Positions 8,290 to 59,888 of a DNA stretch of 59,888 nt are shown here, piece by piece. The notes under the pieces were generated by a model. The model was not told the origin of the DNA. It saw only the letters and a list, made by a program, of their open reading frames with translations, and did not search any database. The translations under genes were made by a program, and so were the position numbers. Numbering within the stretch: position 1 is the first letter of the stretch; each line of letters starts with the position of its first letter. This DNA comes from a virus (Duplodnaviria > Caudoviricetes). The stretch covers positions 1 to 59,888 of IMG/VR virus record IMGVR_UViG_3300032797_000052; one strand, written 5' to 3'.

Positions 8290-8402
8290 AGGTTGGGCAG
8301 ACCAGCTTTCCTACTGGCTTGTTGTCGGCAGTTGCAGGCGGACGGACCACTATCTGTTATCTGCCCGTATCATAAGGGAGTATCTCACCTTCTGCCCAAC
8401 CT
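8290..8402 (-). ncRNA. structured RNA / 5' leader candidate
   Basis: 12-bp closing stem starting at the predicted TSS, three internal hairpins. Confidence 0.55.
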
Positions 8403-8409
8403 TGACCAA

Positions 8410-8482
8410 AGTATACTCCCATTTTGAAGTTTGTCAACTAGAACATCTGTGCTATTGACAAACCTTGAAACCATGCTATAAT
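8410..8482. promoter_or_regulatory. back-to-back sigma70 promoters flanking a LexA-like box
   Basis: Minus: TTGACA(8437-32)-16-TATACT. Plus: TTGACA(8455-60)-16-TATAAT. AGAACATCTGTGCT at 8440-8453 lies between them. Confidence 0.8.
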
Positions 8483-8503
8483 ACAACCAAAAGGAGGCCG
8501 ACG

Positions 8504-8929: not shown

Positions 8930-9027
8930 CTGAGACGGCGGTCGCCGTAATATTCTTTGTACTCGCCACTATCTTGATGATTGCGATGTTCATTGGATCA
9001 GACTGCGGTGGGGGGATGTGTCCATGA

Positions 9028-9369
9028 TTGATTTCATTGACGCAAAGAAGGATTGATGATATGATGGATAAATTTTTTGGCAAAAATGATATTAAAACAA
9101 GTGAACAAGGTATGTATTTAAAGCCAGTAGGCAAACCAGAGGATAATCCATTTCCTTCACCTTATCCAGAAACACCATTTGCAAATTGGGAGGAACTTCT
9201 TATTCCACAATGTAATTATGGAGTGCCAGCAAATACAGAAGAAGGTGTTATGGATTGTGGTGAACCTGCTTTATGGAGAGTTTGGTGGAAACCAGATGAA
9301 TCGGATTCAATGTTTGTCTGTGAGGAACATGCTAGAGTTATCGAAGAATCTGAGAGGAATAATAAATGA
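9028..9369 (+). CDS. hypothetical protein, possible Zn-binding
   Basis: C..C...CEEH; start uncertain. Confidence 0.55.
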   Translation: MISLTQRRIDDMMDKFFGKNDIKTSEQGMYLKPVGKPEDNPFPSPYPETPFANWEELLIPQCNYGVPANTEEGVMDCGEPALWRVWWKPDESDSMFVCEEHARVIEESERNNK

Positions 9370-9566
9370 AATGTCCATGTTGTGAAGGAAAAAAAGGATG
9401 GTCTGAGGATTATGGGGAGGGAACAATTTTATGGGATAAATGTCCAATATGTCATGCCACAGGTAAGGTTGGATTTATGATATGGTTTTGGGGTAAAGCT
9501 CCTGCTAGATGGGTTGAATTGGTTGGAGACTTTCTAGATTGGCGGCATAAAAATGAATCTGAATGA
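9366..9566 (+). CDS. small Zn-finger protein (DnaJ-type CxxCxGxG repeats)
   Basis: CPCCEGKKG...CPICHATG. Confidence 0.6.
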   Translation: MKCPCCEGKKGWSEDYGEGTILWDKCPICHATGKVGFMIWFWGKAPARWVELVGDFLDWRHKNESE

Positions 9567-9744
9567 TTATATTGAAAAAATACTCAAACCAAGACGGGAT
9601 TTGTATTTAAACTATGCAAGAGATGCTGAAGTTTATAAATTAGAAATGTCACAGATGGCATGGATAAGTATGGCTGATGATATAGATACAACTATACATG
9701 AACTTCAAGATTTGGTTTTAAATTTTCCCACTGAACCGGAGTAA
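9553..9744 (+). CDS. hypothetical protein
   Basis: Coupled small ORF. Confidence 0.5.
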   Translation: MNLNDYIEKILKPRRDLYLNYARDAEVYKLEMSQMAWISMADDIDTTIHELQDLVLNFPTEPE

Positions 9745-9747
9745 ATT

Positions 9748-9990
9748 ATGGCAATTAAAACAGAAGAAGGTAAGTATCAATGTTTCTATTGTTTAAAACG
9801 ATTTAATAAATCAGAAGATGCAGATGAATGTAGAGAGGCACATGATCTAATTTATGTACCAATTTCTAGGGTTGATTTAAATAGACTGATTAATTTTATC
9901 ATGTATCCAGACATGAAATTATTAAAAGGTACAAGAATTATGGATATGTTATTTGACTATGCCAAAAAACCGAAACCAATTGAAAAATAA
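9748..9990 (+). CDS. C2H2-like Zn-finger protein
   Basis: YQCFYCLKRF...CREAH. Confidence 0.55.
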   Translation: MAIKTEEGKYQCFYCLKRFNKSEDADECREAHDLIYVPISRVDLNRLINFIMYPDMKLLKGTRIMDMLFDYAKKPKPIEK

Positions 9991-10165
9991 GTGTATCGTC
10001 TGTGAAGAAAAAATTCTTCCAGATGAGTCCTTATTTATGCTTGCTAGTGATTATCCATATAAAAATATCTATGTACATAGGATTTGTTTTCATTTAAAAA
10101 GTGATGATGAAATACAGAAAATCATTGAAAACAATCTAAAAACATCATTAATTGGCTATTTATGA
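9953..10165 (+). CDS. small Zn-binding protein
   Basis: CIVC...HRIC. Confidence 0.5.
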   Translation: MTMPKNRNQLKNKCIVCEEKILPDESLFMLASDYPYKNIYVHRICFHLKSDDEIQKIIENNLKTSLIGYL

Positions 10166-10187
10166 TAGAATGATGATGGAGGTAACA

Positions 10188-10379
10188 ATGGATAAACAGT
10201 GGTGGAAAACAATTTATGGTCCTCCTGAAGGAACACCAGTAGATGAGAATGACATTGACCCATCTGAGTTACTTGATATGGGTGGAGAGATATGTCCTAT
10301 CTGTTGTAATTTAACTTTGTTTAGAAATGGTAGATGTGTGATATGCAAAGCCTGTGGGCATAGTATGTGTGAAATATGA
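10188..10379 (+). CDS. Zn-ribbon protein
   Basis: CPICC...GRCVICKACGHSMC, like the C-terminal ribbon of class II RNRs; GGAGG RBS. Confidence 0.55.
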   Translation: MDKQWWKTIYGPPEGTPVDENDIDPSELLDMGGEICPICCNLTLFRNGRCVICKACGHSMCEI

Positions 10380-11038
10380 AAAGAAAACTAGAACCGATGA
10401 CTTACAAAAAGTCTCTTAATTTAACTCAATTTAGAGATTTAGGTGATTTAGAAGAAAAAAGTGATGCTGAGATCATAGAAGAAAGCCAAGAGGAACAGAG
10501 ATATGATCAAGAGGCCGAAATTCAAAAACGAATAGATGAATTTGGGAATGATTATGATTTAAGTGACATGAAAGTAAATGATAAAATAGTTATGCGCCAA
10601 TTAATTCAGGCTATTATATCACTTGAAAGCTTAGAAGATACTTTTATGGCAGAACGCACAGATGTTTCAGAAAAAAATATTCTTATAATGGATAGAATTG
10701 CATCTATAATGAATAAATTAAGAGCGGATATTTCTAGTATGCAAAATGATTTAAAACTAACAAGGAAAATTCGTAAGGAAAGTGTTGAAGAAAATTTTAT
10801 AACTTGGCTAGATAATACAAAGAGAAAAGCTGATACTTATTATAAACAAAAACATCTATTTATTTTTTGTCCAAAGTGCAAAGAACTTATAGCTACAGTA
10901 TGGTTACTCTATCCTAATTCATTAAATATATTACATGCAGACTGTGCTAATGAATTTTGTGGAAATAAATTCGATGTAGAACTTTCCAAACTTTATGATA
11001 CAGATAATAAGAATCTAAGTGAAGCGATAATACCATAA
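10376..11038 (+). CDS. hypothetical helical protein with C-terminal Zn ribbon (possible terminase small subunit)
   Basis: 220 aa; CPKC...C...C; last gene before the sugar cluster/TerL operon. Confidence 0.5.
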   Translation: MKRKLEPMTYKKSLNLTQFRDLGDLEEKSDAEIIEESQEEQRYDQEAEIQKRIDEFGNDYDLSDMKVNDKIVMRQLIQAIISLESLEDTFMAERTDVSEKNILIMDRIASIMNKLRADISSMQNDLKLTRKIRKESVEENFITWLDNTKRKADTYYKQKHLFIFCPKCKELIATVWLLYPNSLNILHADCANEFCGNKFDVELSKLYDTDNKNLSEAIIP

Positions 11039-11061
11039 AAAGGAGATAGAAGGATAAAAAA

Positions 11062-11961
11062 ATGTTAAAGGATTTAGTTTTAGGCGCATCAGGGACAATA
11101 GGTAGATGGTTTATGGGAGATAATATTGTATCAGTAGATAAAGATATTCCAGAAAATCATATAGGTACTTATCTAATAACTGATCTCACTGATGAACATA
11201 AATTAATATCTATTTTTGAGAATCAATCTTATAATAAAGTTTTTCAATTTGCGGCTGATTCTGGAAAAATAGATTATCTTCTTTCCGCAGAACATTTTTA
11301 TGGCAATTCGACCCTTATTAATATCAATATACTAAAAGCACTCAAATGGGCCAAAAAAATCAATAAAGTTATTTGGCCTAGTTCTTTTTATAGATACGAT
11401 ATGTCTAGTCCATATGGATTAGAAAAAAAATATAATGAAGAATTATTTAAAAGAAATCTTTCTAAGGAAATAAAATTTATACTTCCTATTTTATGGCCTA
11501 CCTATGGACCATTATGTGATTTGACAATTAAAAATGAGAAAATAACAACTATGCTTTGTAGAAGAATTATAAAAGCCAATGATGGAGATATACTTGAATT
11601 AAAATTAAATCCACAGGAAGGTAGGTATTTTATCTATATTACGGATGCTATAAAAGCAATAAAATTAATGGCAGATTATGATGAGAATTTAATACTTGAT
11701 ATAGGAGGAGTTGAATTTATAACATTCGGAAATTTATTTAGAGAAATAGTAGAAATATCTAGAAAAGATATCTCAGTTTGTTATACCTCGAACATTGGTG
11801 AAAAAAGAATTACAAATAAATCTCCTGATCTAAAAACAACTTTATCAATTTTAGATTGGAATCCTGAGACATCTTTTCATAGGGGTATGGTAGCGACTTA
11901 TAGATTTATCGCAGAAACTTTGGAGGAATGGAATGCTTTATATAGAGCGGAACAATTGTAG
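11062..11961 (+). CDS. NAD-dependent epimerase/dehydratase (extended SDR)
   Basis: GASGTIG Rossmann motif, SS, YGLEK catalytic motif, YGP, LDWNP. Confidence 0.85.
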   Translation: MLKDLVLGASGTIGRWFMGDNIVSVDKDIPENHIGTYLITDLTDEHKLISIFENQSYNKVFQFAADSGKIDYLLSAEHFYGNSTLININILKALKWAKKINKVIWPSSFYRYDMSSPYGLEKKYNEELFKRNLSKEIKFILPILWPTYGPLCDLTIKNEKITTMLCRRIIKANDGDILELKLNPQEGRYFIYITDAIKAIKLMADYDENLILDIGGVEFITFGNLFREIVEISRKDISVCYTSNIGEKRITNKSPDLKTTLSILDWNPETSFHRGMVATYRFIAETLEEWNALYRAEQL

Positions 11962-13171
11962 AATTTCAGATTCAAAATTAGAAACAGTTTTAGATTTAGG
12001 TACAATTTATCCTTCTACCTTTGTTAAACCTGGAGAGGGATATGACTTTGAAAAAGTTCCACTTGAACTTTGTCGAGGAACGGAATCAAATCTTGTTCAG
12101 TTGAGACATACAGTTGATAGAGATTCACTTTATCGTCAATATTGGTATAAATCACAATTGAATAACACAATGGTTCACCATCTACAAGATATAGTAGATA
12201 ATATAACAGAAAGAATATCAATTCATCCTGGGGATGTTATTATTGATATTGGATGTAATGATGGTATAATGTTGTCAATGTTTCCAAAATATTGTTTTAA
12301 AATTGGAATTGATCCAGCTAATAATCTAAAAACCGTAGCATCTGGAAATTGTACTCTCTTTGTGAATGATTATTTTTCTAAAGAAGTTCTTCCACCAAAT
12401 CTACATGCTAAAATTATAACATCAATAGCCATGTTCTATGATCTTGATAATCCTAGAAAATTTATTGAGGATATTTTATCTGTAATGGATAGAGAGGGAA
12501 CATGGGTCATTCAAATGACCGATCTTTTTTGCATGTTAAGGGCTAATGCTTTTGATAATATTGTTCATGAGCATCTAGAATATTATTCTCTAGATGTTCT
12601 TATGAAACTATTATCAGAATATAATTTATTTATTTGGGATATTCAATATAATTTAGTAAATGGGGGAAGTGTCAGACTTTATATATCTCGCAGGGATTCC
12701 TCACATCGTCAATCAATAAATGTTCTAAGAGCATCATTTGTAGAGGATGAGTATTTAAGAGATGATCCATCACTAAAATTATTTAAAGATAGAATAGAAT
12801 CTATAAAATCAAAAGTCGTTAATTTTATCAGAAGAGAAAGAGATAGTTATAAATCAGTATATGGATTAGGAGCATCAACAAAAGGTAACACTCTACTTCA
12901 ATATTTTGGTCTTGACCATAATGATATCATTAAAATTGCTGAGATAAATCCTGATAAATATGGACTTGAAACCATAGGATCACGTATTCCAATAGTTCCA
13001 AATCTTTATGCCTTTGCTGAAAATCCTGATTATTTTCTAATTCTACCGTGGCATTTTGCACCTGATATTATTAGTAAATGCAAACTTTATATGAACAAAG
13101 GTATGAAATTTATTGTTCCTTGTCCAGAACCAATGATTATAGGGAGGTACGGATGCAAATTGATGGAGTAA
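11933..13171 (+). CDS. NDP-hexose C-methyltransferase
   Basis: DIGCNDG SAM motif, FDNIVHEHLEYYS, NGGSVR, YGLGASTKGNTLLQY, LILPWHF. Confidence 0.9.
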   Translation: MLYIERNNCRISDSKLETVLDLGTIYPSTFVKPGEGYDFEKVPLELCRGTESNLVQLRHTVDRDSLYRQYWYKSQLNNTMVHHLQDIVDNITERISIHPGDVIIDIGCNDGIMLSMFPKYCFKIGIDPANNLKTVASGNCTLFVNDYFSKEVLPPNLHAKIITSIAMFYDLDNPRKFIEDILSVMDREGTWVIQMTDLFCMLRANAFDNIVHEHLEYYSLDVLMKLLSEYNLFIWDIQYNLVNGGSVRLYISRRDSSHRQSINVLRASFVEDEYLRDDPSLKLFKDRIESIKSKVVNFIRRERDSYKSVYGLGASTKGNTLLQYFGLDHNDIIKIAEINPDKYGLETIGSRIPIVPNLYAFAENPDYFLILPWHFAPDIISKCKLYMNKGMKFIVPCPEPMIIGRYGCKLME

Positions 13172-13404
13172 ATTTAAAAAGTATTGGAACTTTAATTGAT
13201 GAGCTATCAATTATAAATATTAGAATTTGGATGATGATAGACATTATAATGGGAAAGGATACAAGAAATCATACACAAGAAGAAATTATTAATGTCGCTA
13301 AAGAAGTTCAGAAATTAAATGCAAAGAGAACTAAAATCATACGAGCAATAGATGAGCGATTAGGAGATAAAGATTCTACTCCAGCCGAGAAATTGTATGG
13401 CTAG
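13153..13404 (+). CDS. small helical protein (DUF4254/DUF6165-like)
   Basis: SIGTLIDELSIINIR...LNAKR...AID pattern typical of glycan loci. Confidence 0.55.
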   Translation: MQIDGVNLKSIGTLIDELSIINIRIWMMIDIIMGKDTRNHTQEEIINVAKEVQKLNAKRTKIIRAIDERLGDKDSTPAEKLYG

Positions 13405-14239
13405 TTATGGAGCAGTTATTATATCAAGAAATGATAATTATGGTGGAAATCTAGTAGAACGAGCTTCTTATTGTTTAAATTCATGTATTATTACTTTTGA
13501 TGAAATATTTTATATAGATTGGAACTCACCAGAGAAATGTCTTATAGAAGAAATAGAACCTAATCTATTAAAAACTGGAAAATTAAAATGGATACAAGTA
13601 ACACCAGAAGAACACAAACTTTTTACTAATAATGATGAAAGTGTACAAGTATGTTGCGAGGTTTTAGGAAGAAACATTGGAGTTCGTAGGCTTTCTACTG
13701 ATTTCATAGTCAGTACTAATATTGATGAAATATCTCCACCAAGACCACAACTTGAAACTCTCACATCTAAAACAACTTTTTATACAATCGCTAGACACGG
13801 TATTCAAGATATGAATATATTGCGTGGTGCTGGAAATTATCAGGAGATTGATAAAATAAGGGGAATTTTATTAGGAATGGGACTTCCTCAAGCATGGCCC
13901 GTAAAAATGTCATTGGAGGATGATTGGTCTTTAGTAGGATGGTGTGGAGATTTTCAGGTTGCTCATAGAAATGTCTGGTATAAGATTAGGGGATTTGAGG
14001 AGGTAATGTTAGGAAGAGGATTAGCAGATACATTTATTCAGAGAAAAGCAAAAGAGGAAGGATTTGAATTAAAACTTGTCTATGATGTACCTATATGGCA
14101 TATGGATCATGGGGCAGGTAGCGGTGGAATTGGGAGGAATAACAATCCTGAGACCTGGATTTATAAAGATTATAAAGGTACAACAAATTCTGAGGATTGG
14201 GGAAAACCAAATTATCCATTCGAGGTTCATACACTATGA
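13397..14239 (+). CDS. GT-A fold glycosyltransferase
   Basis: SRNDNYGG, RNIGVRR, STNID, GDFQ..HR..W..IRGFEE, WHMDH. Confidence 0.75.
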   Translation: MASYGAVIISRNDNYGGNLVERASYCLNSCIITFDEIFYIDWNSPEKCLIEEIEPNLLKTGKLKWIQVTPEEHKLFTNNDESVQVCCEVLGRNIGVRRLSTDFIVSTNIDEISPPRPQLETLTSKTTFYTIARHGIQDMNILRGAGNYQEIDKIRGILLGMGLPQAWPVKMSLEDDWSLVGWCGDFQVAHRNVWYKIRGFEEVMLGRGLADTFIQRKAKEEGFELKLVYDVPIWHMDHGAGSGGIGRNNNPETWIYKDYKGTTNSEDWGKPNYPFEVHTL

Positions 14240-15162
14240 ACAAATATATTGTAACTACAACAATACAACCTCCAACAGAAGCTACTTATAAATTCTCTGA
14301 AATGAAAGATTGGACTCTGATAATTGTTGGAGATATAAGAACTCCTCAAGAACAGTATAAATATGGTAACTGGATTTATTTATCTCCTGATTATCAGAAT
14401 CAACATTATCACAATGTAAGTGAGGCTATTGGTTGGAATTGTATTATGAGAAGAAATATAGGTTTTTTAGAAGCATATAAACTTGGAGCGGATATTGTTG
14501 CTAGCATAGATGATGATAATATTCCTTATGAAGATTGGGGAAAAGATTTAATAGTTGGAAAAGATATTGAGGTAGGACTTTATAATTGCGATGTTGGTAT
14601 TTTAGACCCAATGCAATTAACAAATCATCCTGAGTTATGGCATAGAGGTTATCCTATTGATAGACTTTATGAAAGAAAAAAAGTAAATTATCTTGAAAAA
14701 GTAATTAGGAAAGTTTTATTTCAAGTTAGTTTATGGAAAGGTGATCCAGATGTTGATGCTCTTTGTAGACTAATGTATAAACCTACAGATTTACAGTTAA
14801 CAGTTCGTGAGAAATTTTCATCTAATAATTTTATCCCATTTAACAGCCAGAATACATTTATTGACCGAAGTGCTTTATCTAGTTATATGGTTCTTCCATA
14901 TGTAGGTAGATCAGATGATATTTGGGGAGGATATATAGCTCAACATTTATTGAATACTCGCCCTGTATTTACTCATCCAACTGTTTATCAAAAAAGAAAT
15001 GACCAATCTATTTATAAAAATTTAGATGATGAGTTATTTGGTTATATGTGGACCAATAAATTTGTAGAAAATATAGAATATTTTGAGTATCGTCTTCCTA
15101 CAAAAACATTAAAAGCTTTTGATCTTTACAGGAAAGAATATGAAACCTTTAAAAATATTTAG
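14236..15162 (+). CDS. STELLO/DUF288-like (GT75-related) glycosyltransferase
   Basis: IVTTTI.PPT, IIVGD..TP, RRNIGFL.A...GA.I...DDDN, DPDVDA, FNSQNT, R.DDIW. Confidence 0.8.
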   Translation: MNKYIVTTTIQPPTEATYKFSEMKDWTLIIVGDIRTPQEQYKYGNWIYLSPDYQNQHYHNVSEAIGWNCIMRRNIGFLEAYKLGADIVASIDDDNIPYEDWGKDLIVGKDIEVGLYNCDVGILDPMQLTNHPELWHRGYPIDRLYERKKVNYLEKVIRKVLFQVSLWKGDPDVDALCRLMYKPTDLQLTVREKFSSNNFIPFNSQNTFIDRSALSSYMVLPYVGRSDDIWGGYIAQHLLNTRPVFTHPTVYQKRNDQSIYKNLDDELFGYMWTNKFVENIEYFEYRLPTKTLKAFDLYRKEYETFKNI

Positions 15163-15793
15163 AGATATAGATCGTCTTGTATATACTCAATTTATAGAAT
15201 ACTCATTTTGGATAGACACATTAAATTTTTTAAAAAAGAGAAATATAAGAACTATTGTAGATATAGGAGCATCATCTGGATTGTCTACTCTAATGTTTCT
15301 AGAACTGCCTGATTTAGAAAAGATATACTGTTTTGAACCAGACGAGATAAATTATGAAATGCTAATTGCGAATATGGAAGATTATAGAAATATAGTTGAA
15401 TTACATAATGTTGGAATATATTATGGAATAACAGAATCAAATGTAGTTGGAACAGGAGATAAAAGTCCTTTAGGATATATGGTAGAAGATGCTACCAAAG
15501 AACATAATTTTATATTTGGTACTATCAGATATGAAGGAAAAAAATTTAAACTGACAACATTAGAAAATATTATAAAAACTCCAGTAGATTTAATAAAAAT
15601 AGATGCTGAAGGTTCTGAATATAATATTATAGAAAATTCTAAGTTATTAAAAGAATCAAAAATTTTAATTATTAGTTTTCACAATCACCTAGAGAATTAT
15701 GTGAAAGATTTTATTTATAGAAATTTACCAAAATATGTACCAATAATAGTAGTAAGTTCTGGAGGGTACTCTGATGTTTTGTTGGAAAAATAA
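15140..15793 (+). CDS. FkbM-family methyltransferase
   Basis: VDIGASSG, FEP...NY..L..N, IKIDAEGSE. Confidence 0.85.
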   Translation: MKPLKIFRDIDRLVYTQFIEYSFWIDTLNFLKKRNIRTIVDIGASSGLSTLMFLELPDLEKIYCFEPDEINYEMLIANMEDYRNIVELHNVGIYYGITESNVVGTGDKSPLGYMVEDATKEHNFIFGTIRYEGKKFKLTTLENIIKTPVDLIKIDAEGSEYNIIENSKLLKESKILIISFHNHLENYVKDFIYRNLPKYVPIIVVSSGGYSDVLLEK

Positions 15794-17095
15794 ATGAAAA
15801 TATTATTTATAGAAAAGAAACTAAGAACTGATAAATTAGGAATCCTTTATCTTTCCAGTATACTAAAAATGGCTGGACATGATGTTAATCTCCTACAATT
15901 TGATGTTGATAATATTCTTCTAAGATTAAAAGAGGATAAGCCAGATTTTATAATGTACTCAGTAATGTCTAGTGAGTATGAATGGTTTTTAGAATACAAT
16001 AGATTCTTAAAACTCAATTTTGATTTTATATCCGTAATGGGAGGACCACATTTTACTTTCTTTCCAGAACAAGGACTAGAGGATACTTATGTAGATTTTG
16101 TGATTCAAGGACCAGGAGAAGATATTATTTTAGGCATTGTTGAGGGAGAGTTAAAAGATAAATTAGTTGTGGGACATCTTCCAGATATCAATAAATTACC
16201 TCATCCAGACCGTTCTATTCTTTATAAATATGACGAGTTTGGTAAAGCTCGAATGAAAAGATTTATAGCAGGAAGATATTGTTTATATAGTTGCAAATAT
16301 TGTTTCAATCATTTATTTAAAAAGATTTATCAAACAGAGAAGAATCTGTTCTTTCAAAGAGTATGTCCTGACAAAATGATTGAAGAGATTGGAGAAGTAA
16401 AACATCAATATGGCCTAGAATTAGTGTATTTCAATGATGATGATTTGGCAGCAAATAAGGAATGGTTAATTGAGTTTTGTGATAAATACAAAGAAAGAAT
16501 TGGTCTTGATTTCTGTGGTTCTATTCGAGCATCTAGTGTTGATTATAATATATTAAAAATAATGAGGAATGCTGGATGTACTTTTCTGAATATAGCTCTA
16601 GAATCAGCTAATCCTGAAACTCAGAAATTTCTTCGCAGAGGATTTATTACTAATGACCAAATCAAATCAGCCTGTGATATTTGTAAGGAACTTGGAATTA
16701 AAGTTAGATTACAAAATATGATAGGTTTACCAGTTGATAACCCTCTTGAGGATGCTTTACAAACTCTTAAGATGAATCGAGAGATAAATCCAACAGATTC
16801 CTGGGCTGCTATTTTTCAACCTTATCCTAAAACAGATTTATGGAAATACTGTATTGATAAAGGTTTAATACAACCAGATACTCAAGCTGGAACTTTTTAT
16901 GAACATACTGTGTTAAATATAAAAGATGCTGATAAAATAAATAATTTACATAAATGGTGGTTCTTTGCAGTAAAATATCAATGGCCTATAGAGTTAGTAA
17001 GAATATTACTAGATACTACTTTGACAAAAGAACAAGGAATGAAACTTCAAGAGTATAGATGGGATGTAGCTAAAAATTTACTTTATGGGATGTGA
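15794..17095 (+). CDS. cobalamin-binding radical SAM enzyme (class B)
   Basis: LGILYLSS..K.AGH and GGPH.T B12 domain; CLYSCKYC; FNDD; ALESA; MIGLP; FQPYPKT. Confidence 0.9.
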   Translation: MKILFIEKKLRTDKLGILYLSSILKMAGHDVNLLQFDVDNILLRLKEDKPDFIMYSVMSSEYEWFLEYNRFLKLNFDFISVMGGPHFTFFPEQGLEDTYVDFVIQGPGEDIILGIVEGELKDKLVVGHLPDINKLPHPDRSILYKYDEFGKARMKRFIAGRYCLYSCKYCFNHLFKKIYQTEKNLFFQRVCPDKMIEEIGEVKHQYGLELVYFNDDDLAANKEWLIEFCDKYKERIGLDFCGSIRASSVDYNILKIMRNAGCTFLNIALESANPETQKFLRRGFITNDQIKSACDICKELGIKVRLQNMIGLPVDNPLEDALQTLKMNREINPTDSWAAIFQPYPKTDLWKYCIDKGLIQPDTQAGTFYEHTVLNIKDADKINNLHKWWFFAVKYQWPIELVRILLDTTLTKEQGMKLQEYRWDVAKNLLYGM

Positions 17096-18069
17096 AAATG
17101 AATGCTTTAGTATGTGGGGCTGGTGGATTTATAGGAAATCATTTGGTTAATAAATTAAAGCAAGAAGATTTTTATGTTGTAGGAGCAGATTTAGTTTATC
17201 CTGCATATAATAAAACAAATGCTAATGAATATCATTTATGTGATTTACGAGAACCAGATTGGTGTGATACTTTATTTGATAATTATTATGATGAAATATA
17301 CCAATTAGCTGCCGATATGGGTGGAGCAGAATATATTTTTACTGGACTGCATGATGCAGATATCATACATAACTCTGCACTTATAAATTTAAATATAATT
17401 AAAAGATGCGTTGATAATAAAGTTGGAAAAATTTTCTTTTCATCCAGTGCTTGTGTATATAATCAATATAATCAAATGTTTCCTAACAATCCATTGTGTA
17501 GAGAAGATTCAGCCCTTCCAGCATTTCCAGATAGTGACTATGGTTGGGAGAAATTATTTAGCGAGATACTCTACTTAGCATATAATAGAAATTATAAAAT
17601 TCCAATAGCAATTGCTAGATTTCATAATATTTTTGGACCTTATGGGGCATGGAATAACGGTAAAGAGAAAGCCCCTGCTGCTATCTGTAGAAAAGTTGCA
17701 TATGCTAAAGCAAAAGAACTTGATTCGATAGATATTTTTGGATATGGAAAACAAACCAGAAGTTTTCTTTATATTGATGAATGTTTAATAGGAGTTAGAA
17801 AGCTAATGGATTCTAATTTTACTGGACCAGTAAATATAGGTTCAGATGAGATGGTTTCTATAGATACTTTGGCTAAAATGATTATGAAAATTGCAGGAAT
17901 TAATTTAAGAATAAATCATATTGTAGGACCTACCGGAGTAAGAGGAAGAACATCAGATAATACTTTAATTGAACAAGAATTAAACTGGAGACCAACAACA
18001 AAACTTTATGATGGTTTAGTTTTATTATATAAATGGATAGAGGAGAAGGTCAATGAAACTATTCAATAA
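17092..18069 (+). CDS. GDP-mannose 3,5-epimerase-like
   Basis: GAGGFIG, LAADMGG, SSACVY, YGWEK, RFHNIFGP, EKAPAA.CRK, QTRSF, GVRGR.SDN. Confidence 0.9.
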   Translation: MKMNALVCGAGGFIGNHLVNKLKQEDFYVVGADLVYPAYNKTNANEYHLCDLREPDWCDTLFDNYYDEIYQLAADMGGAEYIFTGLHDADIIHNSALINLNIIKRCVDNKVGKIFFSSSACVYNQYNQMFPNNPLCREDSALPAFPDSDYGWEKLFSEILYLAYNRNYKIPIAIARFHNIFGPYGAWNNGKEKAPAAICRKVAYAKAKELDSIDIFGYGKQTRSFLYIDECLIGVRKLMDSNFTGPVNIGSDEMVSIDTLAKMIMKIAGINLRINHIVGPTGVRGRTSDNTLIEQELNWRPTTKLYDGLVLLYKWIEEKVNETIQ

Positions 18070-36896: not shown

Positions 36897-36957
36897 GAGG
36901 GGTCATACATAAAATTCTGGATTAATTTTAGAATTATGTAATTATGTATGACCCCTC
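36897..36957 (+). other. long hairpin after the tail tube gene (terminator or processing site)
   Basis: Perfect 16-bp stem GAGGGGTCATACATAA/TTATGTATGACCCCTC. Confidence 0.7.
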
Positions 36958-52503: not shown

Positions 52504-52591
52504 GGGTGCATTGAGCAATCCGGTGTGCTCGCCTGACTGTAGATCAGGTTCCCAAAAAGACATGGTGGTTCAAATCCATCTGCACCCACCA
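52504..52591 (+). tRNA. tRNA-Tyr(GUA)
   Basis: Acceptor GGGTGCA/TGCACCC, anticodon CCTGA-CTGTAGA-TCAGG, TTCAAAT loop, encoded CCA. Confidence 0.9.
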
Positions 52592-52738: not shown

Positions 52739-53455
52739 CTAGTATCCTCTCAAATTCGCCTCCTTCTTTCCCTTGACAACCTGGTACTGCCCACTCGCAA
52801 CAGCCTGGTTCACGATTGACTCCAGCTTCGCGACCTTCGAGATTACGGTATCGCGATTGTAGGAAACATCCCCTACATGTGCTGATTCCACTTTCCAGCC
52901 CGACCGTTCTAGCGTAGTGAGCGCAGCACCCTTAATGTTTCCCTCGTGTGGCATACTTTGACGCGCCTTGATTACTCCCAAGACACAGTATGCCGCGACC
53001 TCGAGGAGTGCGACTAGGGGAGGCGTGTGTACAAACAATCCGTTAATCCACGCGTCAAGCATGCCCGCTTGTCCGTTTTTGCAGAAGGCGCGGTGATTCT
53101 TTGCATCGCCTACAGCTTCATAGCATGGCCAGTAGTCCTCTAGCTTGACTACTGCCTTCTTGCCTTCGGGATTCTTGAAGGTGACTTCCCCCGTGACCCT
53201 GCTATTCGAGGCGAATTGTGCAACGGCATTTTGCACAAAGCGGTATGCTTTGACTCCTCTCCCCGTATCGCCCATACAATCCTTGGCAAGATTAGTATAG
53301 GCAAGCGTTTGCTTCTGTGACATTGCGGGGAGCGTGACTCCCTCTCCGATCACCTGGTAGTGCGTGGAGAGGGAAACATTCGCGCTTGCCAGCTTACTCT
53401 CAGCCTTGGGCGATGCTTCCTTGATTCGTTTTTGTAGCGCAACGCGTGTAGCCAT
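52739..53455 (-). CDS. hypothetical protein (GC-rich, basic)
   Basis: AAGGAG RBS before ATG 53455; own promoter and terminator. Confidence 0.75.
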   Translation of the reverse strand: MATRVALQKRIKEASPKAESKLASANVSLSTHYQVIGEGVTLPAMSQKQTLAYTNLAKDCMGDTGRGVKAYRFVQNAVAQFASNSRVTGEVTFKNPEGKKAVVKLEDYWPCYEAVGDAKNHRAFCKNGQAGMLDAWINGLFVHTPPLVALLEVAAYCVLGVIKARQSMPHEGNIKGAALTTLERSGWKVESAHVGDVSYNRDTVISKVAKLESIVNQAVASGQYQVVKGKKEANLRGY

Positions 53456-53543
53456 TACAAGACTCCTTATGAAACGCAAAACGTAGCATATAGGCGCGAG
53501 CGTATGCCCACAATAGAGAATCCTCCTTCCTGCCCGCACGCGA

Positions 53544-53799: not shown

Positions 53800-54423
53800 G
53801 GTTTAGTACTCAGTACTCTGTACTCAAGGAGGCTATAGTAACAGGAACTTAAAACTAATTCGGAATCTGAGTAAGCGTAGAGTAAACTAAAAAAGGCGAG
53901 TACTTAGTACTCATTACTAATTTGGATAGAAAACATAACAGTTGCCCCCAAGTAATGCGGATTCTATCCAGTTGAGTACTCAGTATATAGTAATTAGTAC
54001 TCATTGTCGAGTAAACAAATCAGACTAATCTGGCCTAATTACTATATGCTACATACTCAATAGAAAGTAGAATAATAGAAAATTTATTAGTTTATTGAGT
54101 ATTTTAGGTTCTGAGGTAACGGAATTTGAATAGAAATCGGGTTTTCTGAGTACTCAATACTGATTGACTGGCGATTGAGTAAATTGTTGTCTTTTGAGTA
54201 GATAAATAGTGTGTTTGTACTGTACAAATTATATTTTTGAGGTTAAAGTGCTATTATACTGTATTGTGAGTAATACAGCCTTATAACAGCATCTAATAGG
54301 ATAATCAACAAATACTAAGATTTCTTTCAGTCAAAATCTTTAAGGTGCGATTCGGAGGGTCATGGTACAATCAAGGTGGCAGCCGCACGTCTAGACAAAG
54401 CTGAGTAATAGAAAAGGAGTACT
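53800..54423. repeat. dense GAGTA/TACTC (GAGTACTC) motif array in a non-coding block
   Basis: About 20 half-sites counted by eye. Confidence 0.75.
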
Positions 54424-54426
54424 GAA

Positions 54427-54942
54427 ATGGCTACAAATAAGAAAATCTCCTTTACACTGGAAAGTTCACCAAATAAGAATTATCGAGTAGGAAAATCTCT
54501 CCGATTTACATGGGCAGACTTGTTTTTAGCATTAGATACAGTAAAACCTCTTTGTTCGAGTAAAATCCTACGGGCGGTTATTCAATCTTTGCTGAATAGT
54601 GGCAAAGATTTTACTCATCAATATTTGTGGAAAGTAGTAGAAATGCTATACAAAGAGAAACTGTTAAAAACAAGCGATACAATGAAAGTATGCGTTTGGA
54701 TTATAGCAGCTTATGGGTACATGCACGGCTGTTCTACTGATGAATATGGTATAGGAACTTTCCCTCATCCATCGGGGCCGAGTAGAATCAAGAAAGTGAG
54801 GTTCACTGACTGGCGTGATAATCTAGTCTGTCCACTTTGTAGTAGAATCTACCATCCTAGAAAGGGCAGAGTAAATAAGGAGGTGATTGTAAAAGAATTT
54901 GGAGTATGGTTAGAAAATCATCTTACACGCGAACCACACTAG
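54427..54942 (+). CDS. hypothetical protein with C-terminal C2H2-like finger
   Basis: CPLC...HLTREPH; AAGGAG RBS. Confidence 0.65.
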   Translation: MATNKKISFTLESSPNKNYRVGKSLRFTWADLFLALDTVKPLCSSKILRAVIQSLLNSGKDFTHQYLWKVVEMLYKEKLLKTSDTMKVCVWIIAAYGYMHGCSTDEYGIGTFPHPSGPSRIKKVRFTDWRDNLVCPLCSRIYHPRKGRVNKEVIVKEFGVWLENHLTREPH

Positions 54943-57073: not shown

Positions 57074-57197
57074 CTATTTAATCTATCAGTACTCAGATTT
57101 GGGTACTCAGATGATGAGTAGGCCAAGAGTAGAGAAAAAACTTGAGTACCGAGCAGCAGTTTGAGTACTCAGTAATTAATACTCATTGTAGACAAAC

Positions 57198-57262: not shown

Positions 57263-57868
57263 TTACAATGCAACACTGACTTCTGCCTCAGTAATTTTAC
57301 TATTGCGAGCCTTGGGTTCATTTGCTTGTCGAGGATAACGCTTGAATGATTCTCTAGCAGCATTTGTCTTAATGCCACACATTGTAATCAAATCCTTAAC
57401 ATTGAATATCATCATGCCACCGCGTGCAGCATAATTAACTATTACATTATAATCAGCAGGTTCTTTACTAAATCCTAATTGTTTGAATTTTGACGCAACT
57501 TCATTCACCCAAGCAGCAAATCCTAATTGTCTAGCACCACGCGCTGTACCACTACCACCGACAATTGCATTGAAAAGGAATTCTGCTTGATTAGGATTTA
57601 ATCCATTAATGAACTGAGATTCAGCATAGATTAAAAGTGGATTACCCTTACCGGCCACTTCTACTGAAATCTCATTAATCTGACCTTTTTCAACACTTGT
57701 GGCAATAGGTAATGTACTGCCAAAAGCTTTTAGACTAGGAAGAGTCAGTAAAGTAACTTTCTTTGTATTAGAAGTAGGCTTACTAATAGGTTTCTGAGGA
57801 ACTTTACTATTAGCTATTCTATTGTGCAGTTCCTTTTTACCAGTCACTTTATTTTCCTCGTTACTCAC
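57263..57868 (-). CDS. hypothetical basic protein
   Basis: 201 aa, isolated transcription unit with terminator. Confidence 0.7.
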   Translation of the reverse strand: MSNEENKVTGKKELHNRIANSKVPQKPISKPTSNTKKVTLLTLPSLKAFGSTLPIATSVEKGQINEISVEVAGKGNPLLIYAESQFINGLNPNQAEFLFNAIVGGSGTARGARQLGFAAWVNEVASKFKQLGFSKEPADYNVIVNYAARGGMMIFNVKDLITMCGIKTNAARESFKRYPRQANEPKARNSKITEAEVSVAL

Positions 57869-58025
57869 ATACTTGCTTTAAGACTTTAACAGGAATTCTA
57901 ATCTTATCCGGGTTTCTAATAATTCTATCTTTACGCTTAGTTATCACTTTAACAGATTCATTACTAATATGGAACCTAATTCTTATATCATATGTTCGCA
58001 TTGTAGGCTCCTTGACTATGCTATT

Positions 58026-58157
58026 AAAATGAAAAATGCTACTCAGATAAGAGTAGTAGAGGGTTTAAGAGGTAACGGCGAGACCTCTCATATTATAATG
58101 GCCGTTTCGATAATGATAAAAGTCTCTACTACTCATATCCGAGTAGCATTTCATTTA
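58026..58157 (-). ncRNA. three-way-junction RNA with complementary loops
   Basis: 26-bp basal stem, two apical hairpins, loops AACGGC/GCCGTT. Confidence 0.6.
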
Positions 58158-58163
58158 TTTTAG

Positions 58164-58235
58164 TACGCCTACGAGGAATTGAACCTCGATCAATAGATTA
58201 AAAGTCTACTGCACTATCCTTTGTGCTATAGGCGC
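58164..58235 (-). tRNA. tRNA-Lys(UUU)
   Basis: GCGCCTA/TAGGCGT, GTAGA-CTTTTAA-TCTAT, CGAGG-TTCAATT-CCTCG. Confidence 0.9.
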
Positions 58236-58246
58236 ATGATTCTGAG

Positions 58247-58319
58247 TGGACTAGGGTAGACTCGAACTACCAGCCGACCGCTTATAAGACGGTTGCACGT
58301 ACCATCGTGCTGCTAGTCC
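58247..58319 (-). tRNA. tRNA-Ile(UAU)
   Basis: GGACTAG/CTAGTCC, ACCGT-CTTATAA-GCGGT, GGTAG-TTCGAGT-CTACC. Confidence 0.88.
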
Positions 58320-58324
58320 AAAGA

Positions 58325-58440
58325 TGCTGTAGTTTATTGGCTTTTATCCTACAGCGTATCCTGCCTGTAACTACTAACAGGTTGTCTTTTGGTGCCCACC
58401 TATTAGGTGCTCACCGCAGAGTAGTTTTAAGCCACAGGAT
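58325..58440 (-). ncRNA. double-pseudoknot RNA candidate between tRNAs
   Basis: Four stems plus two loop-strand complementarities (7 and 6 bp). Confidence 0.6.
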
Positions 58441-58442
58441 AG

Positions 58443-58526
58443 TCCCACCACCGAGATTTGCACTCGGACGCCATTACTGGCTGTGGATTTTAAGTCCACT
58501 ATGTCTGCTAGTTTCATCATGGTGGG
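58443..58526 (-). tRNA. tRNA-Leu(UAA)
   Basis: CCCACCA/TGGTGGG, GTGGA-CTTAAAA-TCCAC, long variable arm, CCGAG-TGCAAAT-CTCGG. Confidence 0.9.
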
Positions 58527-58617
58527 AGTAGTGGATTATACTGTATAGATGCGAATACTCAGGCGGATACTCACTGGCGAGTACTCCGAACCACTTTACA
58601 TCGTACTCTCAGTATAA

Positions 58618-58682
58618 CCCACTGTTCTGAGTATAAATGGAAGTTTCTCTTACTTCAGTACATTTATACTCAGAACAGTGGG
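58618..58682. repeat. perfect 22-bp inverted repeat
   Basis: CCCACTGTTCTGAGTATAAATG (58618-39) / CATTTATACTCAGAACAGTGGG (58661-82). Confidence 0.8.
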
Positions 58683-58713
58683 GGAGAGGGCGAACCCGAT
58701 AGACTAGACTAGT

Positions 58714-59097
58714 CTAGGATACTGTGGGAACGGGTAGAAGAATACTGATCTGTTTAACGGATTCAACATCCGTTATAACAGGCAATTCTACCACGTTCTC
58801 CACTATCTTTTCGGGCTGCATCAAAAGGGCGAGAGCCATTTGCCTCAGATCACCCTGATGCTGGTATCCGCGTAGATTTGTCTTTACTGGTACTATATTC
58901 CCATCATACGGGAGGAGGATAATCCAACGATCATCCTCAGTACCCTTCTCCCATCCAGTATTCAAGAACATGAGGGGAATATGGCGAAGTCCCTTACACA
59001 TCGCCCGAATTTCTGTACCAGATTTTCCGTATCTACTCGGACGTTGAGGCTCACCGGCTGAACCAGATGTATCAGGCTTCCCTGTTTTAGGGGTCAT
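58714..59097 (-). CDS. hypothetical protein (GC-rich)
   Basis: AAGGAG RBS; own promoter at 59163-59199. Confidence 0.65.
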   Translation of the reverse strand: MTPKTGKPDTSGSAGEPQRPSRYGKSGTEIRAMCKGLRHIPLMFLNTGWEKGTEDDRWIILLPYDGNIVPVKTNLRGYQHQGDLRQMALALLMQPEKIVENVVELPVITDVESVKQISILLPVPTVS

Positions 59098-59429
59098 GGA
59101 GTATTACTCCTTTTTGGGTACTATGTACCAGCCTGCCCATCAGGCGCGCCCTCTCCAGCCTTATTGTCCCACAGATTCCGAAAACGCACCTTAAAGATTC
59201 CGAATGAAAATAATTTTATTATTTGATGGAATTTAGGTACTCAAGTGTTGAGTAAGCGGAGAGTAAAAGAGAAATCTTGAGTAGACAAAGAGTAAAATTG
59301 AAGAATTTAGTAGTTAAAACTTTTGAGTACTCAGTAAAAAGTAAAGGAATTTGGAGTAAAAAAAATTATATTTAGTCCTAATATTCTATTATATATATTT
59401 ATTCTACCATAATTTGTTACTTTAAACAG

Positions 59430-59464
59430 AAAAAAGGGATAACCGCTTTTTTACGGTTATCCCT
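59430..59464 (-). terminator. rho-independent terminator
   Basis: AGGGATAACCG/CGGTTATCCCT plus T tract on minus. Confidence 0.75.
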
Positions 59465-59888
59465 CTCTTCTTTAGAATAGAAACTTTAGCAATTTACAAC
59501 TATTTTTAGTTCATGTTTATCCTCCTAGATATATCATTTTGTTATAAGTTAGAATTTAGAGTAATTATTATACTTATATGCTCTCCGAGGTAACGGAAAA
59601 TTTTTAGAAATCGGAAATTTTTATTACTTTATCAATATCCAAAATACTATAATAATTGTTAAACAAATTATAGTAGCCATTATAATACCTGTAATTTGTT
59701 CTCCGTTTAAAAGACACATAGGATATCCAAATTATTTGCCTACTTTCTTTACAATCATCTTTGGACGAAACTTATCAATCTCTTTCCTAATAGCATTAAA
59801 TGTATCCCAATCAATTAAATAAGCATTGTTAAGAGCATCATCAACATCAACATAATCCTCACCGCTAGGAGAATAAATAACACCACTA

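What the first reader, a model, noticed from the sequence alone, without database searches (positions are those of the whole stretch)
58026..58700. RNA operon: tRNAs interleaved with unrecognised, tertiary-structured ncRNAs
Seen (minus strand order): 22-bp hairpin, repeat-bearing inverted repeat, tRNA-Leu, double-pseudoknot element, tRNA-Ile, tRNA-Lys, kissing-loop element. Almost all ~670 nt is structured and non-coding. Established: tRNA processing can release flanking RNAs, and phage tRNA clusters host orphan ncRNAs (T4 species I/II, GOLLD, theta ribozymes). Inference: tRNA punctuation produces at least two new ncRNA classes.
Basis: partly seen in the sequence, partly recalled or inferred. 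Interest (0 to 1): 0.75.

Follow-up and report, generated by a model that had tools for sequence, protein, structure and literature searches.

The report
Phage tRNA cluster with regulatory hairpins
This is a real three-tRNA gene cluster in an orphan tailed phage, bracketed by strong hairpins and a phage-wide repeated DNA motif, and the evidence points mostly to ordinary promoter, operator, terminator or processing signals rather than two new classes of non-coding RNA.

Summary
The linear features are real. There are three tRNAs on the minus strand (Leu-UAA, Ile-UAU, Lys-UUU), a perfect 22-bp hairpin (58618-58682) and a 33-nt-arm hairpin after tRNA-Lys (58034-58151, z -8.1).

The tertiary claims are weaker:
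- A nested double pseudoknot as good as the best one in the Leu-Ile spacer turns up in 59 of 300 shuffles.
- The "repeat-bearing inverted repeat" folds no better than chance (z -1.4). It looks like a promoter/operator: a TATAAT sits 8 nt before tRNA-Leu, the same layout as tRNA-Tyr.
- The loop complementarity inside the post-Lys element is beyond chance (3 of 5000 shuffles) and is kept in the one relative I could fetch.

Much of the inverted symmetry comes from a TGAGTA/TACTCA motif. It occurs 74 times against 39 expected and clusters in four intergenic regions, including one with no tRNA. That suggests DNA-level protein binding.

In the relative (L005), the tRNAs are 99-100% identical and the post-Lys hairpin 88%, against 73-76% for the coding DNA. 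The 65 nt before tRNA-Ile are unrelated to the window's Leu-Ile spacer. No Rfam family matches, and no expression data were found.

Verdict: an ordinary phage tRNA unit with lineage-specific cis elements. Only the post-Lys element remains a credible candidate for a structured RNA.

The parts
58618..58682 (-). Perfect 22-bp hairpin with a 21-nt loop, 32 nt after the stop of ORF127. Each arm carries TGAGTA/TACTCA. No U-tract follows.
   Evidence: inverted repeat I2, 100% complementary. (z -6.55); contigs of runs X1 and X4 cover it with changes in the loop, at the top of the stem and at 58680-58681.
58527..58617 (-). Promoter/operator-like segment. It holds TATAAT at 58535-58540 (8 nt before tRNA-Leu), TGAGTA at 58556-58561 and 58568-58573, the palindrome TACTC-N6-GAGTA at 58568-58583, and GAGTACTC at 58579-58586.
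   Evidence: Read. (motifs). (z -1.39); contigs run on unlike the window beyond 58535-58541. One search shows the parallel at tRNA-Tyr.
58442..58526 (-). tRNA-Leu, anticodon UAA, long variable arm, no encoded CCA.
   Evidence: (46.1 bits, E 3.8e-08).
58320..58441 (-). 122-nt Leu-Ile spacer made of local helices. No known family matches. Relatives do not carry it as one unit.
   Evidence: z -3.10. (no Rfam hit at E<=10). (59 of 300 shuffles equal it). (replaced in relatives).
58246..58319 (-). tRNA-Ile, anticodon UAU.
   Evidence: (54.3 bits). 74 of 74 identical in L005.
58163..58235 (-). tRNA-Lys, anticodon UUU, 10 nt after tRNA-Ile.
   Evidence: (69.9 bits). 72 of 73 identical in L005.
58034..58151 (-). 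Long hairpin with 33-nt arms. Each arm holds a TACTC-N6-GAGTA palindrome (58040-58055, 58130-58145). Inside are an inner hairpin GAGAGGU/ACCUCUU (58067-58089) and the segment AACGGC (58101-58106), which is complementary to that hairpin's loop (58074-58079).
   Evidence: (z -8.10). 99 of 113 aligned positions are identical in L005.
58020..58033 (-). U-rich tract directly after the long hairpin (UUUUUCAUUUU). The RBS and the 46-aa ORF (57861-58001) follow.
   Evidence: Read. One search lists a terminator-like site at 58056-58039 (-). The U-tract is kept in L005.
58683..59156 (-). Context outside the given coordinates: ORF127 (58714-59097) enclosed by a 10+11-bp long-range helix (59135-59156 with 58683-58704). 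The stretch is GC-rich and unusually structured.
   Evidence: z -6.93. (ORF alone, z -6.21). (helix pair probabilities 1.00 and 0.93). (no homologues).

Best explanation
The segment is a transcription unit for three phage tRNAs that read the A-ending codons the AT-rich phage uses most (UUA, AUA, AAA). What surrounds the tRNAs is mainly cis-acting signal, not free-standing ncRNA genes.

1. The 22-bp perfect hairpin closes the upstream ORF127 message. It is a plausible 3' stabiliser or RNase III site.
2. 58527-58617 is a promoter with a TATAAT 8 nt before tRNA-Leu. It is overlaid by TGAGTA-type sites for an unidentified phage DNA-binding protein.
3. The 122-nt Leu-Ile spacer is a lineage-specific, exchangeable filler.
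4. The long hairpin after tRNA-Lys is a terminator, insulator or processing stem. It ends in a U-tract and separates the tRNA precursor from the downstream 46-aa and 201-aa genes. Its two arms are also two copies of the phage's palindromic operator.

Shown: the tRNAs, the hairpins, the motif enrichment and clustering, and the conservation pattern.
Inferred: promoter use, termination, RNase III cleavage and protein binding.
For: tRNAs and codon use:
- tRNAs.
- Over 50 ORFs and 15,957 codons, TTA is 43% of Leu, ATA 38% of Ile and AAA 77% of Lys. GC3 is 0.18.

Promoter:
- tRNA-Tyr has TTGACT-17-TATAAT ending 9 nt before the tRNA.
- tRNA-Leu has TATAAT ending 8 nt before it.

Motif:
- TGAGTA occurs 74 times against 38.7 +/- 5.9 expected; 0 of 100 shuffles reach that.
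- GAGTAC occurs 37 times against 15.8.
- GAGTA density is 8-11 per 500 nt at 53.5-54.5, 57.0-57.5, 58.5-59.0 and 59.0-59.5 kb, against a mean of 1.65. Both orientations occur, often 11 nt apart.
- TACTC-N6-GAGTA occurs 4 times against 0.02 expected: at 53998, 58040, 58130 and 58568.
- Comparable long inverted repeats carrying the motif lie at 53901-54060, where there is no tRNA.

Folding and termination:
- Folding energies of the long hairpin, the spacer and the 22-bp hairpin are the same on both strands.
- Terminator-like sites and the U-tract.

Relatives:
- All three arm differences from relatives fall in the N6 of the palindromes: two in L005 and G>A at 58140 in X4 contigs. The half-sites are unchanged.
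- In L005 the hairpin stays with the downstream ORF, behind a 190-nt insert.

RNase III precedent:
- An idealised E. coli RNase III substrate is 22 bp, two helical turns.
- T7 early RNA carries five processing signals (passages of PMC3867540).
Against: - The 3' 60 nt of the long hairpin is about 95% identical in L005, against 73-76% for the coding DNA. That is more than a plain terminator needs.
- The CGGC island is conserved inside an otherwise variable stretch. It pairs with the conserved loop (3 of 5000 shuffles) and carries an A>G change in L005 that keeps pairing. A DNA operator model does not explain this, so it argues for RNA-level constraint.
- The -35 of the proposed tRNA-Leu promoter is poor (3 of 6), and the consensus scan did not list it.
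- The 22-bp hairpin has no U-tract.
- No binding protein is identified.
- No transcript data exist, so every functional step is inferred.
Confidence: 0.55

Rival explanations
1. The post-Lys element (58034-58151) is a real structured RNA. It is a conserved, bistable or pseudoknotted cis-regulatory RNA in the leader of the 46-aa/201-aa genes, or a stable RNA left behind when tRNA-Lys is cut out. This would be new. The tRNA cluster would act only as its upstream boundary.
For: - z -8.10.
- 87.6% identity in L005, against 73-76% for the coding DNA.
- The inner hairpin and the 3' arm are about 95% identical.
- AACGGC/GCCGUU complementarity is reached by 3 of 5000 shuffles, and L005 keeps it as AGCGGCG/CGCCGUU.
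- The two alternative pairings are isoenergetic, -6.5 against -6.7 kcal/mol.
- Two of the three arm-region changes in L005 improve pairing, and the X4 contigs change G.U to A-U at 58140.
- No Rfam match.
Against: - Only two full sequences plus short contigs are available, and there is no true compensatory double change.
- There is no strand asymmetry: -47.9 against -47.4 kcal/mol in the window, and the opposite strand is the more stable one in L005.
- The arms are copies of a palindrome found elsewhere without tRNAs.
- The geometry forbids a full H-type pseudoknot, because no nucleotides separate GCCGUU from ACCUCUU (sequence).
- No expression data.
Confidence: 0.22
2. The structured spacers are small exchangeable modules, built from the TGAGTA motif, that recombine in and out of intergenic and tRNA-flanking sites. 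They would resemble the promoter-stem-loop repeats that mediate shuffling in T4-type phages (recalled). The 'structure' would then be a by-product of inverted motif copies and quasi-palindrome correction.
For: - Relatives are mosaic. X3 and X4 contigs match 58419-58535 with 0 to 1 differences and then run on unlike the window on both sides. An X2 contig keeps 58196-58441, then runs on unlike the window where tRNA-Leu lies. L005 has a different 65 nt before tRNA-Ile and an extra 190-nt insert rich in TACTC.
- The L005 gene order is inverted relative to the window at a motif cluster.
- In the X1/X4 contigs the apical helix of the 22-bp hairpin is rebuilt from different positions (my reading of the listed changes).
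Against: - None of the window's elements is repeated elsewhere in the record.
- No transposase or homing endonuclease was found beside them.
- The L005 insert folds much better on the tRNA strand (-64.8 against -51.7 kcal/mol, 6 G.U pairs against 0). That looks like selection on RNA, not a by-product.
Confidence: 0.13
3. The Leu-Ile spacer is a self-cleaving HDV-like (theta-type) ribozyme that trims the 3' end of tRNA-Leu.
For: - It lies directly 3' of a phage tRNA that lacks an encoded CCA, which is the context described for theta ribozymes (PMC10879173, section 7).
- By hand, helices in the HDV order can be drawn: UAUCCUG/CAGGAUA, CCUGU/ACAGG, AAAGA/UCUUU, GCUGUAG/CUACAGC.
Against: - No HDV-like or other ribozyme family of Rfam matches at E<=10.
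- There is no G in the five nucleotides that follow the discriminator base (C, U, A, U, C).
- In the hand model the junction that must start with the catalytic C is a single A.
- No 2-bp P1.1 can be drawn.
- Equally good nested double pseudoknots occur in 59 of 300 shuffles.
- X3 and X4 contigs diverge from the window after the first 23 nt of the spacer.
Confidence: 0.03

Closest known systems
Phage tRNA gene clusters that compensate codon usage, e.g. the T4 tRNA cluster with its co-transcribed stable RNAs species 1 and 2 (recalled, not checked in a paper here)
   Same: Several tRNAs are packed head to tail in an early or regulatory region. Their anticodons match the phage's preferred A-ending codons. 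Structured non-tRNA RNA lies at the end of the cluster.
   Different: No sequence or family link to the T4 stable RNAs could be tested. Here the extra elements carry a DNA motif found phage-wide, and one of them stays with the downstream ORF rather than the tRNAs.
RNase III processing hairpins of polycistronic phage RNA (T7 early region) and of rRNA operons (PMC3867540, passages read)
   Same: Long, near-perfect dsRNA stems of 22 bp or more sit between functional units of one transcript: ORF127 | tRNAs | downstream ORFs. A 21-bp long-range stem encloses ORF127.
   Different: Cleavage is untested. T7 sites have characteristic internal loops, whereas the 22-bp stem here is perfect. The host and its RNase III are unknown.
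Theta / minimal HDV-like ribozymes 3' of phage tRNAs (PMC10879173; abstract, sections 7 and 13, and passages read)
   Same: The position is the same: immediately 3' of a phage tRNA with no encoded CCA. A nested pseudoknot can be drawn.
   Different: It fails the features I could test: no G1, no catalytic C at the start of J4/2, no Rfam hit, and a topology that is not beyond chance. Theta ribozymes lack P4 and are much shorter than 122 nt. The published descriptor is in a supplementary figure that I could not see.
Intrinsic (bidirectional) transcription terminators
   Same: A stem flanked by an A-tract and a U-tract lies at 58020-58160. Terminator-like sites were scored on both strands.
   Different: It is 118 nt long, with a 52-nt structured interior and about 95% conservation of its 3' half. 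That is far more than a terminator needs.
Operator arrays of phage repressors or activators, and the promoter-stem-loop repeats of T4-type phages (recalled)
   Same: A short half-site (TGAGTA) recurs as palindromes and as 11-nt-spaced repeats. It is confined to intergenic regulatory regions and lies at points where genome order differs between relatives.
   Different: The binding protein is unknown. The motif also sits in the arms of very stable hairpins within a transcribed tRNA unit.
GOLLD and ROOL large RNAs next to phage tRNAs
   Same: A GC-rich, strongly structured stretch of about 470 nt (58683-59156) lies directly upstream of the tRNAs.
   Different: No Rfam hit at gathering score in the window or at E<=10 in 57800-59888. 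The stretch carries a 127-codon ORF with a Shine-Dalgarno sequence, and 6 of the 8 listed variants are synonymous.

Membership tests
tRNA (Rfam RF00005) | Cloverleaf covariance-model score at or above the gathering score of 29 bits, with an anticodon assigned. | tested here: met
   69.9, 54.3 and 46.1 bits. ARAGORN assigns Lys-UUU, Ile-UAU and Leu-UAA.
HDV-like / theta ribozyme | Match to a curated HDV-like covariance model. | tested here: not met
   No hit in 58320-58441 among 28 matches listed at E<=10.
HDV-like / theta ribozyme | Cleavage-site G1 within +/-5 nt of the tRNA 3' end (PMC10879173, section 7). | tested here: not met
   The five nucleotides after the discriminator A are C, U, A, U, C. 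The only G residues within 5 nt belong to the acceptor stem.
HDV-like / theta ribozyme | Catalytic C at the first position of J4/2 (PMC10879173, section 7). | tested here: not met
   In the only HDV-ordered model I could draw, the junction between CUACAGC and UCUUU is a single A (sequence, printout).
HDV-like / theta ribozyme | Nested double pseudoknot beyond chance. | tested here: not met
   The best generic topology has 17 bp. 59 of 300 dinucleotide shuffles reach it. The descriptor was my own relaxed one; the published descriptor was not seen.
Intrinsic terminator | G+C-containing stem followed directly by a run of U. | tested here: met
   One search lists 58056-58039 (-) with tail CATTTTTCAT. 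The long stem ends one nucleotide before UUUUU. The U-tract is kept in L005. Termination itself is untested.
RNase III substrate | About 22 bp (two helical turns) of uninterrupted dsRNA. | tested here: met
   A 22-bp perfect stem, and a long hairpin of 38 predicted pairs in all. The length criterion comes from PMC3867540.
RNase III substrate | Cleavage by RNase III in vivo or in vitro. | not testable with these tools
   No RNA run holds the region.
GOLLD / ROOL / other large Rfam RNAs | Covariance-model match. | tested here: not met
   Only three tRNAs reach gathering score in the whole window.
Trans-acting ncRNA released by tRNA processing (T4 species 1/2 type) | A discrete, stable RNA species with ends set by tRNA processing. 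| not testable with these tools
   No RNA holder was listed. No family model exists to compare against.
Protein-binding operator array | A short motif that is statistically enriched, found in both orientations, helically phased and confined to intergenic regions. | tested here: met
Protein-binding operator array | An identified protein that binds the motif. | not testable with these tools
   The neighbouring small proteins have no Pfam or PHROG family. The Atlas model of ORF127 gives only sub-threshold likeness (TM 0.35) to Arm DNA-binding domains.

The most novel reading that the evidence does not exclude
The tRNA cluster of this orphan phage lineage is a docking site for interchangeable structured RNA modules. 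Three candidates fit this picture:
- the post-Lys element, a conserved RNA of about 118 nt with a long closing stem and two isoenergetic, mutually exclusive inner pairings (a possible switch in front of the downstream genes);
- the 190-nt, strand-asymmetric insert in the relative L005;
- the upstream ORF127 message, locked into a 21-bp 5'-3' panhandle.

Together they would be new phage RNA elements, cut out or set apart by tRNA processing and RNase III.
Probability: 0.2. Interest if true: 0.55.

Novelty: new member of a known kind. Interest (0 to 1): 0.32.

Why it matters
If the ordinary reading holds, this is a tidy example of a phage tRNA unit wired into a lineage-specific operator system. 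It helps annotation but is not surprising.

If the post-Lys element is a functional RNA, it would add a new structured element to the short list of non-tRNA RNAs housed in phage tRNA clusters. The same holds for the modules that replace one another in relatives. It would also show such clusters acting as exchange sites for RNA modules.

The TGAGTA motif system and the very strongly folded ORF127 message are independent leads into the regulation of a phage group with almost no sequenced relatives.

Tried and rejected
Searches for relatives:
- All 8 scans of viral contigs were used. They gave only one distant DNA-polymerase locus (L004, 21% identity).
- The single metagenome-contig scan gave one 1662-nt contig (L005).
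- Two genome-contig scans found nothing.
- GenBank phages gave little. The DNA search matched only tRNA-Lys, at 78.5%, to crAss-like Bacteroides phages. The 201-aa protein had no match. TerL had one hit at 31% identity.
- As a result, no covariation analysis was possible.

Expression:
- No RNA holder was listed.

Families:
- Rfam at E<=10 gave only tRNAs plus sub-threshold miRNA-type hairpin hits.
- PHROG and Pfam found nothing for ORF127, the 46-aa, 201-aa and 171-aa proteins. ORF266 got only a sub-threshold DUF2111 hit.
- ORF127 has no homologue among 5.8 billion proteins apart from itself and an 85-aa fragment.
- The Atlas search by features gave no usable hit, and its structural rows are all under the bar.

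Ideas dropped:
- HDV-like ribozyme: see the rival explanations.
- TGAGTA as a general -35 element. I looked by eye for a -10 at 16-18 nt after several TTGAGT copies and found none.
- ORF127 as a non-coding large RNA. I judged this less likely because 6 of the 8 listed variants are synonymous and there is a Shine-Dalgarno sequence.

Tools and files not available:
- Paper supplements are closed, so the theta-ribozyme descriptor (Supplementary Fig. 6 of PMC10879173) was not seen.
- The T4 stable-RNA literature search found no relevant paper.
Full report
**What the window is.** The window is one whole IMG/VR virus record of 59,888 nt, estimated 61% complete. It encodes a tape-measure protein, large terminase, portal, DnaB-type helicase and family A DNA polymerase, so it is a tailed phage. 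It has almost no sequenced relatives:
- Eight scans of viral contigs gave only a polymerase at 21% identity.
- GenBank phages gave only a 78.5% match of tRNA-Lys to crAss-like phages and a terminase at 31% identity.

**Checking the observation.** They score 46.1, 54.3 and 69.9 bits.

- The 22-bp hairpin (58618-58639/58661-58682) is perfect, with z -6.55.
- The post-Lys element has 33-nt arms at 88% complementarity. It folds at -51.1 kcal/mol, z -8.10.
- Among 37 inverted repeats in the whole record, these two rank first and fifth.
- The Leu-Ile spacer is only moderately stable: z -3.10, reached by 1 of 200 shuffles.
- The 'repeat-bearing inverted repeat' 58527-58615 is at chance level: z -1.39, reached by 19 of 200 shuffles.
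- No Rfam family other than tRNA reaches its gathering score in the window. At E<=10 the spacers draw only sub-threshold miRNA-type hairpin matches, and 58320-58441 draws nothing.

**The tertiary claims.** I scanned the spacer for any nested double pseudoknot in the HDV order, requiring P1 of at least 6 bp, P2 of at least 4, P3 of at least 3, and P3 abutting P1. The best score is 17 bp, and 59 of 300 dinucleotide shuffles reach it. The 'double pseudoknot' is therefore not beyond chance.

The loop complementarity in the post-Lys element is different. AACGGC (58101-58106) matches the loop GCCGUU of the inner hairpin GAGAGGU/ACCUCUU, and only 3 of 5000 shuffles of the 5' part do as well. The two pairings are isoenergetic at -6.5 and -6.7 kcal/mol. 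They cannot both form fully, because no nucleotide separates GCCGUU from ACCUCUU. They are alternatives rather than a kissing complex or a classical pseudoknot.

**A phage-wide DNA motif explains much of the symmetry.**
- TGAGTA occurs 74 times against 38.7 +/- 5.9 expected. GAGTAC occurs 37 times against 15.8.
- The copies pile up in four intergenic stretches: 53.8-54.4, 57.09-57.19, 58.04-58.67 and 59.24-59.33 kb. Density there is 8-11 GAGTA per 500 nt against a mean of 1.65.
- Copies occur in both orientations, as the palindrome TGAGTACTCA and as repeats 11 nt apart.
- The palindrome TACTC-N6-GAGTA occurs four times against 0.02 expected. One copy lies in each arm of the post-Lys hairpin (58040, 58130), one upstream of tRNA-Leu (58568) and one at 53998, far from any tRNA.
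- Long inverted repeats carrying the motif also lie at 53901-54060.
- The long hairpin, the spacer and the 22-bp hairpin fold equally well on either strand.

This is the signature of binding sites for a DNA-binding protein in regulatory regions.

**The promoter reading of 58527-58617.** tRNA-Tyr (52504-52591) has TTGACT, 17 nt, then TATAAT ending 9 nt before the tRNA, and a terminator after it. tRNA-Leu has TATAAT at 58535-58540, ending 8 nt before the tRNA. Its -35 is weak, and three motif copies and a palindrome lie just upstream. The consensus scan did not list this promoter, so it remains an inference.

**Relatives.** One metagenome contig (L005, 1662 nt) carries tRNA-Ile, tRNA-Lys, the long hairpin and orthologues of the 46-aa and 201-aa ORFs.

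| Segment | Identity to the window |
|---|---|
| tRNA-Ile | 74 of 74 |
| tRNA-Lys | 72 of 73 |
| Long hairpin | 99 of 113 (87.6%) |
| 46-aa and 201-aa ORF DNA | 75.7% and 72.9% |
| 65 nt before tRNA-Ile | 56.7% (unrelated) |

- The hairpin's 5' arm and 3' half are nearly invariant, while its central 30 nt diverged.
- The two arm changes fall in the N6 of the palindromes. One breaks a pair and one repairs a mismatch. A third change, at the top of the stem, turns A.C into G-C.
- In L005 a 190-nt insert separates tRNA-Lys from the hairpin, so the hairpin stays next to the downstream ORF. That insert is itself well folded (z -4.89). It is the only element with clear strand asymmetry: -64.8 against -51.7 kcal/mol, with 6 G.U pairs against 0.

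Short contigs of four runs labelled freshwater sediment metagenome lie on the region at about 90-99% likeness.
- Pieces in X3 and X4 match 58419-58535 with 0 to 1 differences, then run on unlike the window at both ends.
- An X2 piece keeps 58196-58441 (22 other letters), then continues unlike the window. I read the continuation as another tRNA's 3' part, based on 30 letters only.
- An X1 piece keeps 58291-58541 (15 other letters, 3 gaps).
- X1 and X4 pieces cover the 22-bp hairpin with changes in its loop, top and base. The X4 piece runs on unlike the window before 58620.

These are short metagenomic contigs and may be chimeric. Taken at face value, the units between the tRNAs are exchanged among relatives.

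**Why the phage carries these tRNAs.** Over 50 ORFs and 15,957 codons, GC3 is 0.18. TTA is 43% of Leu codons, ATA 38% of Ile and AAA 77% of Lys. The three anticodons read exactly these codons. This is the usual rationale for phage tRNAs.

**Upstream context.** ORF127 (58714-59097) has a Shine-Dalgarno sequence and a leader paralogous to that of the 171-aa ORF at 54427.
- It has no family and no homologue.
- Its GC3 is 0.43.
- It folds very strongly: z -6.21 for the ORF alone and z -6.93 for 58683-59200, against -5.47 on the other strand.
- By comparison, 36 control windows of 500 nt ranged from -4.01 to +2.29 (which covered only positions 1-17,500).
- A 10+11-bp helix pairs 59135-59156 with 58683-58704, with pair probabilities 1.00 and 0.93.
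- Of the 8 variants listed inside the ORF, 6 are synonymous (the tool did not show 74 further differences across the laid stretch).

I read it as a real gene whose message is closed into a panhandle that abuts the 22-bp hairpin.

**How it most likely works (confidence 0.55).** This is a tRNA unit with its own promoter under control of the TGAGTA-binding factor. The 22-bp stem ends or stabilises the ORF127 message. The long A/U-flanked stem ends the tRNA transcript or separates it from the downstream genes, by termination, by RNase III cleavage, or both. The 22-bp length equals the idealised RNase III substrate, and T7 early RNA offers the precedent of inter-unit processing hairpins (PMC3867540, passages). 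Every functional step here is inferred.

**Rival explanations.**
- The post-Lys element is a genuine structured or regulatory RNA (0.22).
- The spacers are exchangeable motif-built modules (0.13).
- The spacer is a theta-type ribozyme (0.03). This fails on G1, the catalytic C, Rfam and the shuffle test. The comparison uses PMC10879173 sections 7 and 13, and its descriptor in a supplement was not visible.

**Verdict.** The cluster and the hairpins are real. The claim of two new ncRNA classes is not established: one candidate is not conserved, and the other can be explained at least as well by cis-acting DNA and RNA signals. Novelty: a new member of a known kind. Interest: 0.32.

Noticed in passing
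window 58683-59200 (minus strand): ORF127 and its leader fold at -207.5 kcal/mol (z -6.93), far outside the 36 control windows. A 21-bp helix joins the 5' leader to the region just after the stop codon. The ORF is GC-rich (GC3 0.43 against 0.18 for the phage) and has no homologue in 5.8 billion proteins, yet 6 of the 8 listed variants are synonymous.
   Followed up: partly
window 53800-54420, 57090-57185, 59238-59333: Dense clusters of TGAGTA/GAGTAC sit in intergenic regions. They include four copies of a roughly 14-bp unit, TTGAGTACTCAGTA (or close to it), at 53972, 54146, 57161 and 59323. This is probably the operator set of an unidentified phage regulator.
   Followed up: partly
window 59160-59200 (minus) and 54335-54385 (plus); L005 1480-1530: About 50 nt of leader (ATCTTTAAGGTGCG..TTCGGA..GG.ACAAT) is paralogous before ORF127 and the 171-aa ORF. 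It aligns with a canonical TTGACG/TAGAAT promoter in L005. The window copies have 4 extra nucleotides in the spacer.
   Followed up: partly
L005 223-412: A 190-nt insert lies between tRNA-Lys and the long hairpin in the relative. It has z -4.89, folds 13 kcal/mol better on the tRNA strand with 6 G.U pairs, has no Rfam match, and carries several TACTC copies. It is the best candidate for a true structured RNA in this lineage.
   Followed up: partly
L005 1553-1662 vs window 54403-54512: In L005 the orthologue of the window's 171-aa ORF follows the 201-aa orthologue on the same strand. In the window the two are about 2.3 kb apart on opposite strands. The rearrangement borders on motif clusters.
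   Followed up: no
window 52739-53539 (minus), next to tRNA-Tyr 52504-52591: This is a second GC-rich island (GC about 0.52, GC3 0.58) with a 266-aa ORF of no known family. It folds at z -3.17. Like ORF127, it lies beside a tRNA gene.
   Followed up: partly
window 7967-8040: An array of GCTTTATATAAAGC-type palindromes lies in the gap between the divergent gene blocks. The 8001-8500 window folds at z -3.7 and -4.0 on the two strands. It may be a replication origin or another operator array.
   Followed up: no
window 58246-58319: The tRNA-Ile carries a UAU anticodon. By recall, most bacteria read AUA with a lysidine-modified CAU tRNA instead. The gene is 100% identical in L005.
   Followed up: no
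window 36897-36957: A perfect 16-bp inverted repeat with a 29-nt loop lies between structural genes.
   Followed up: no
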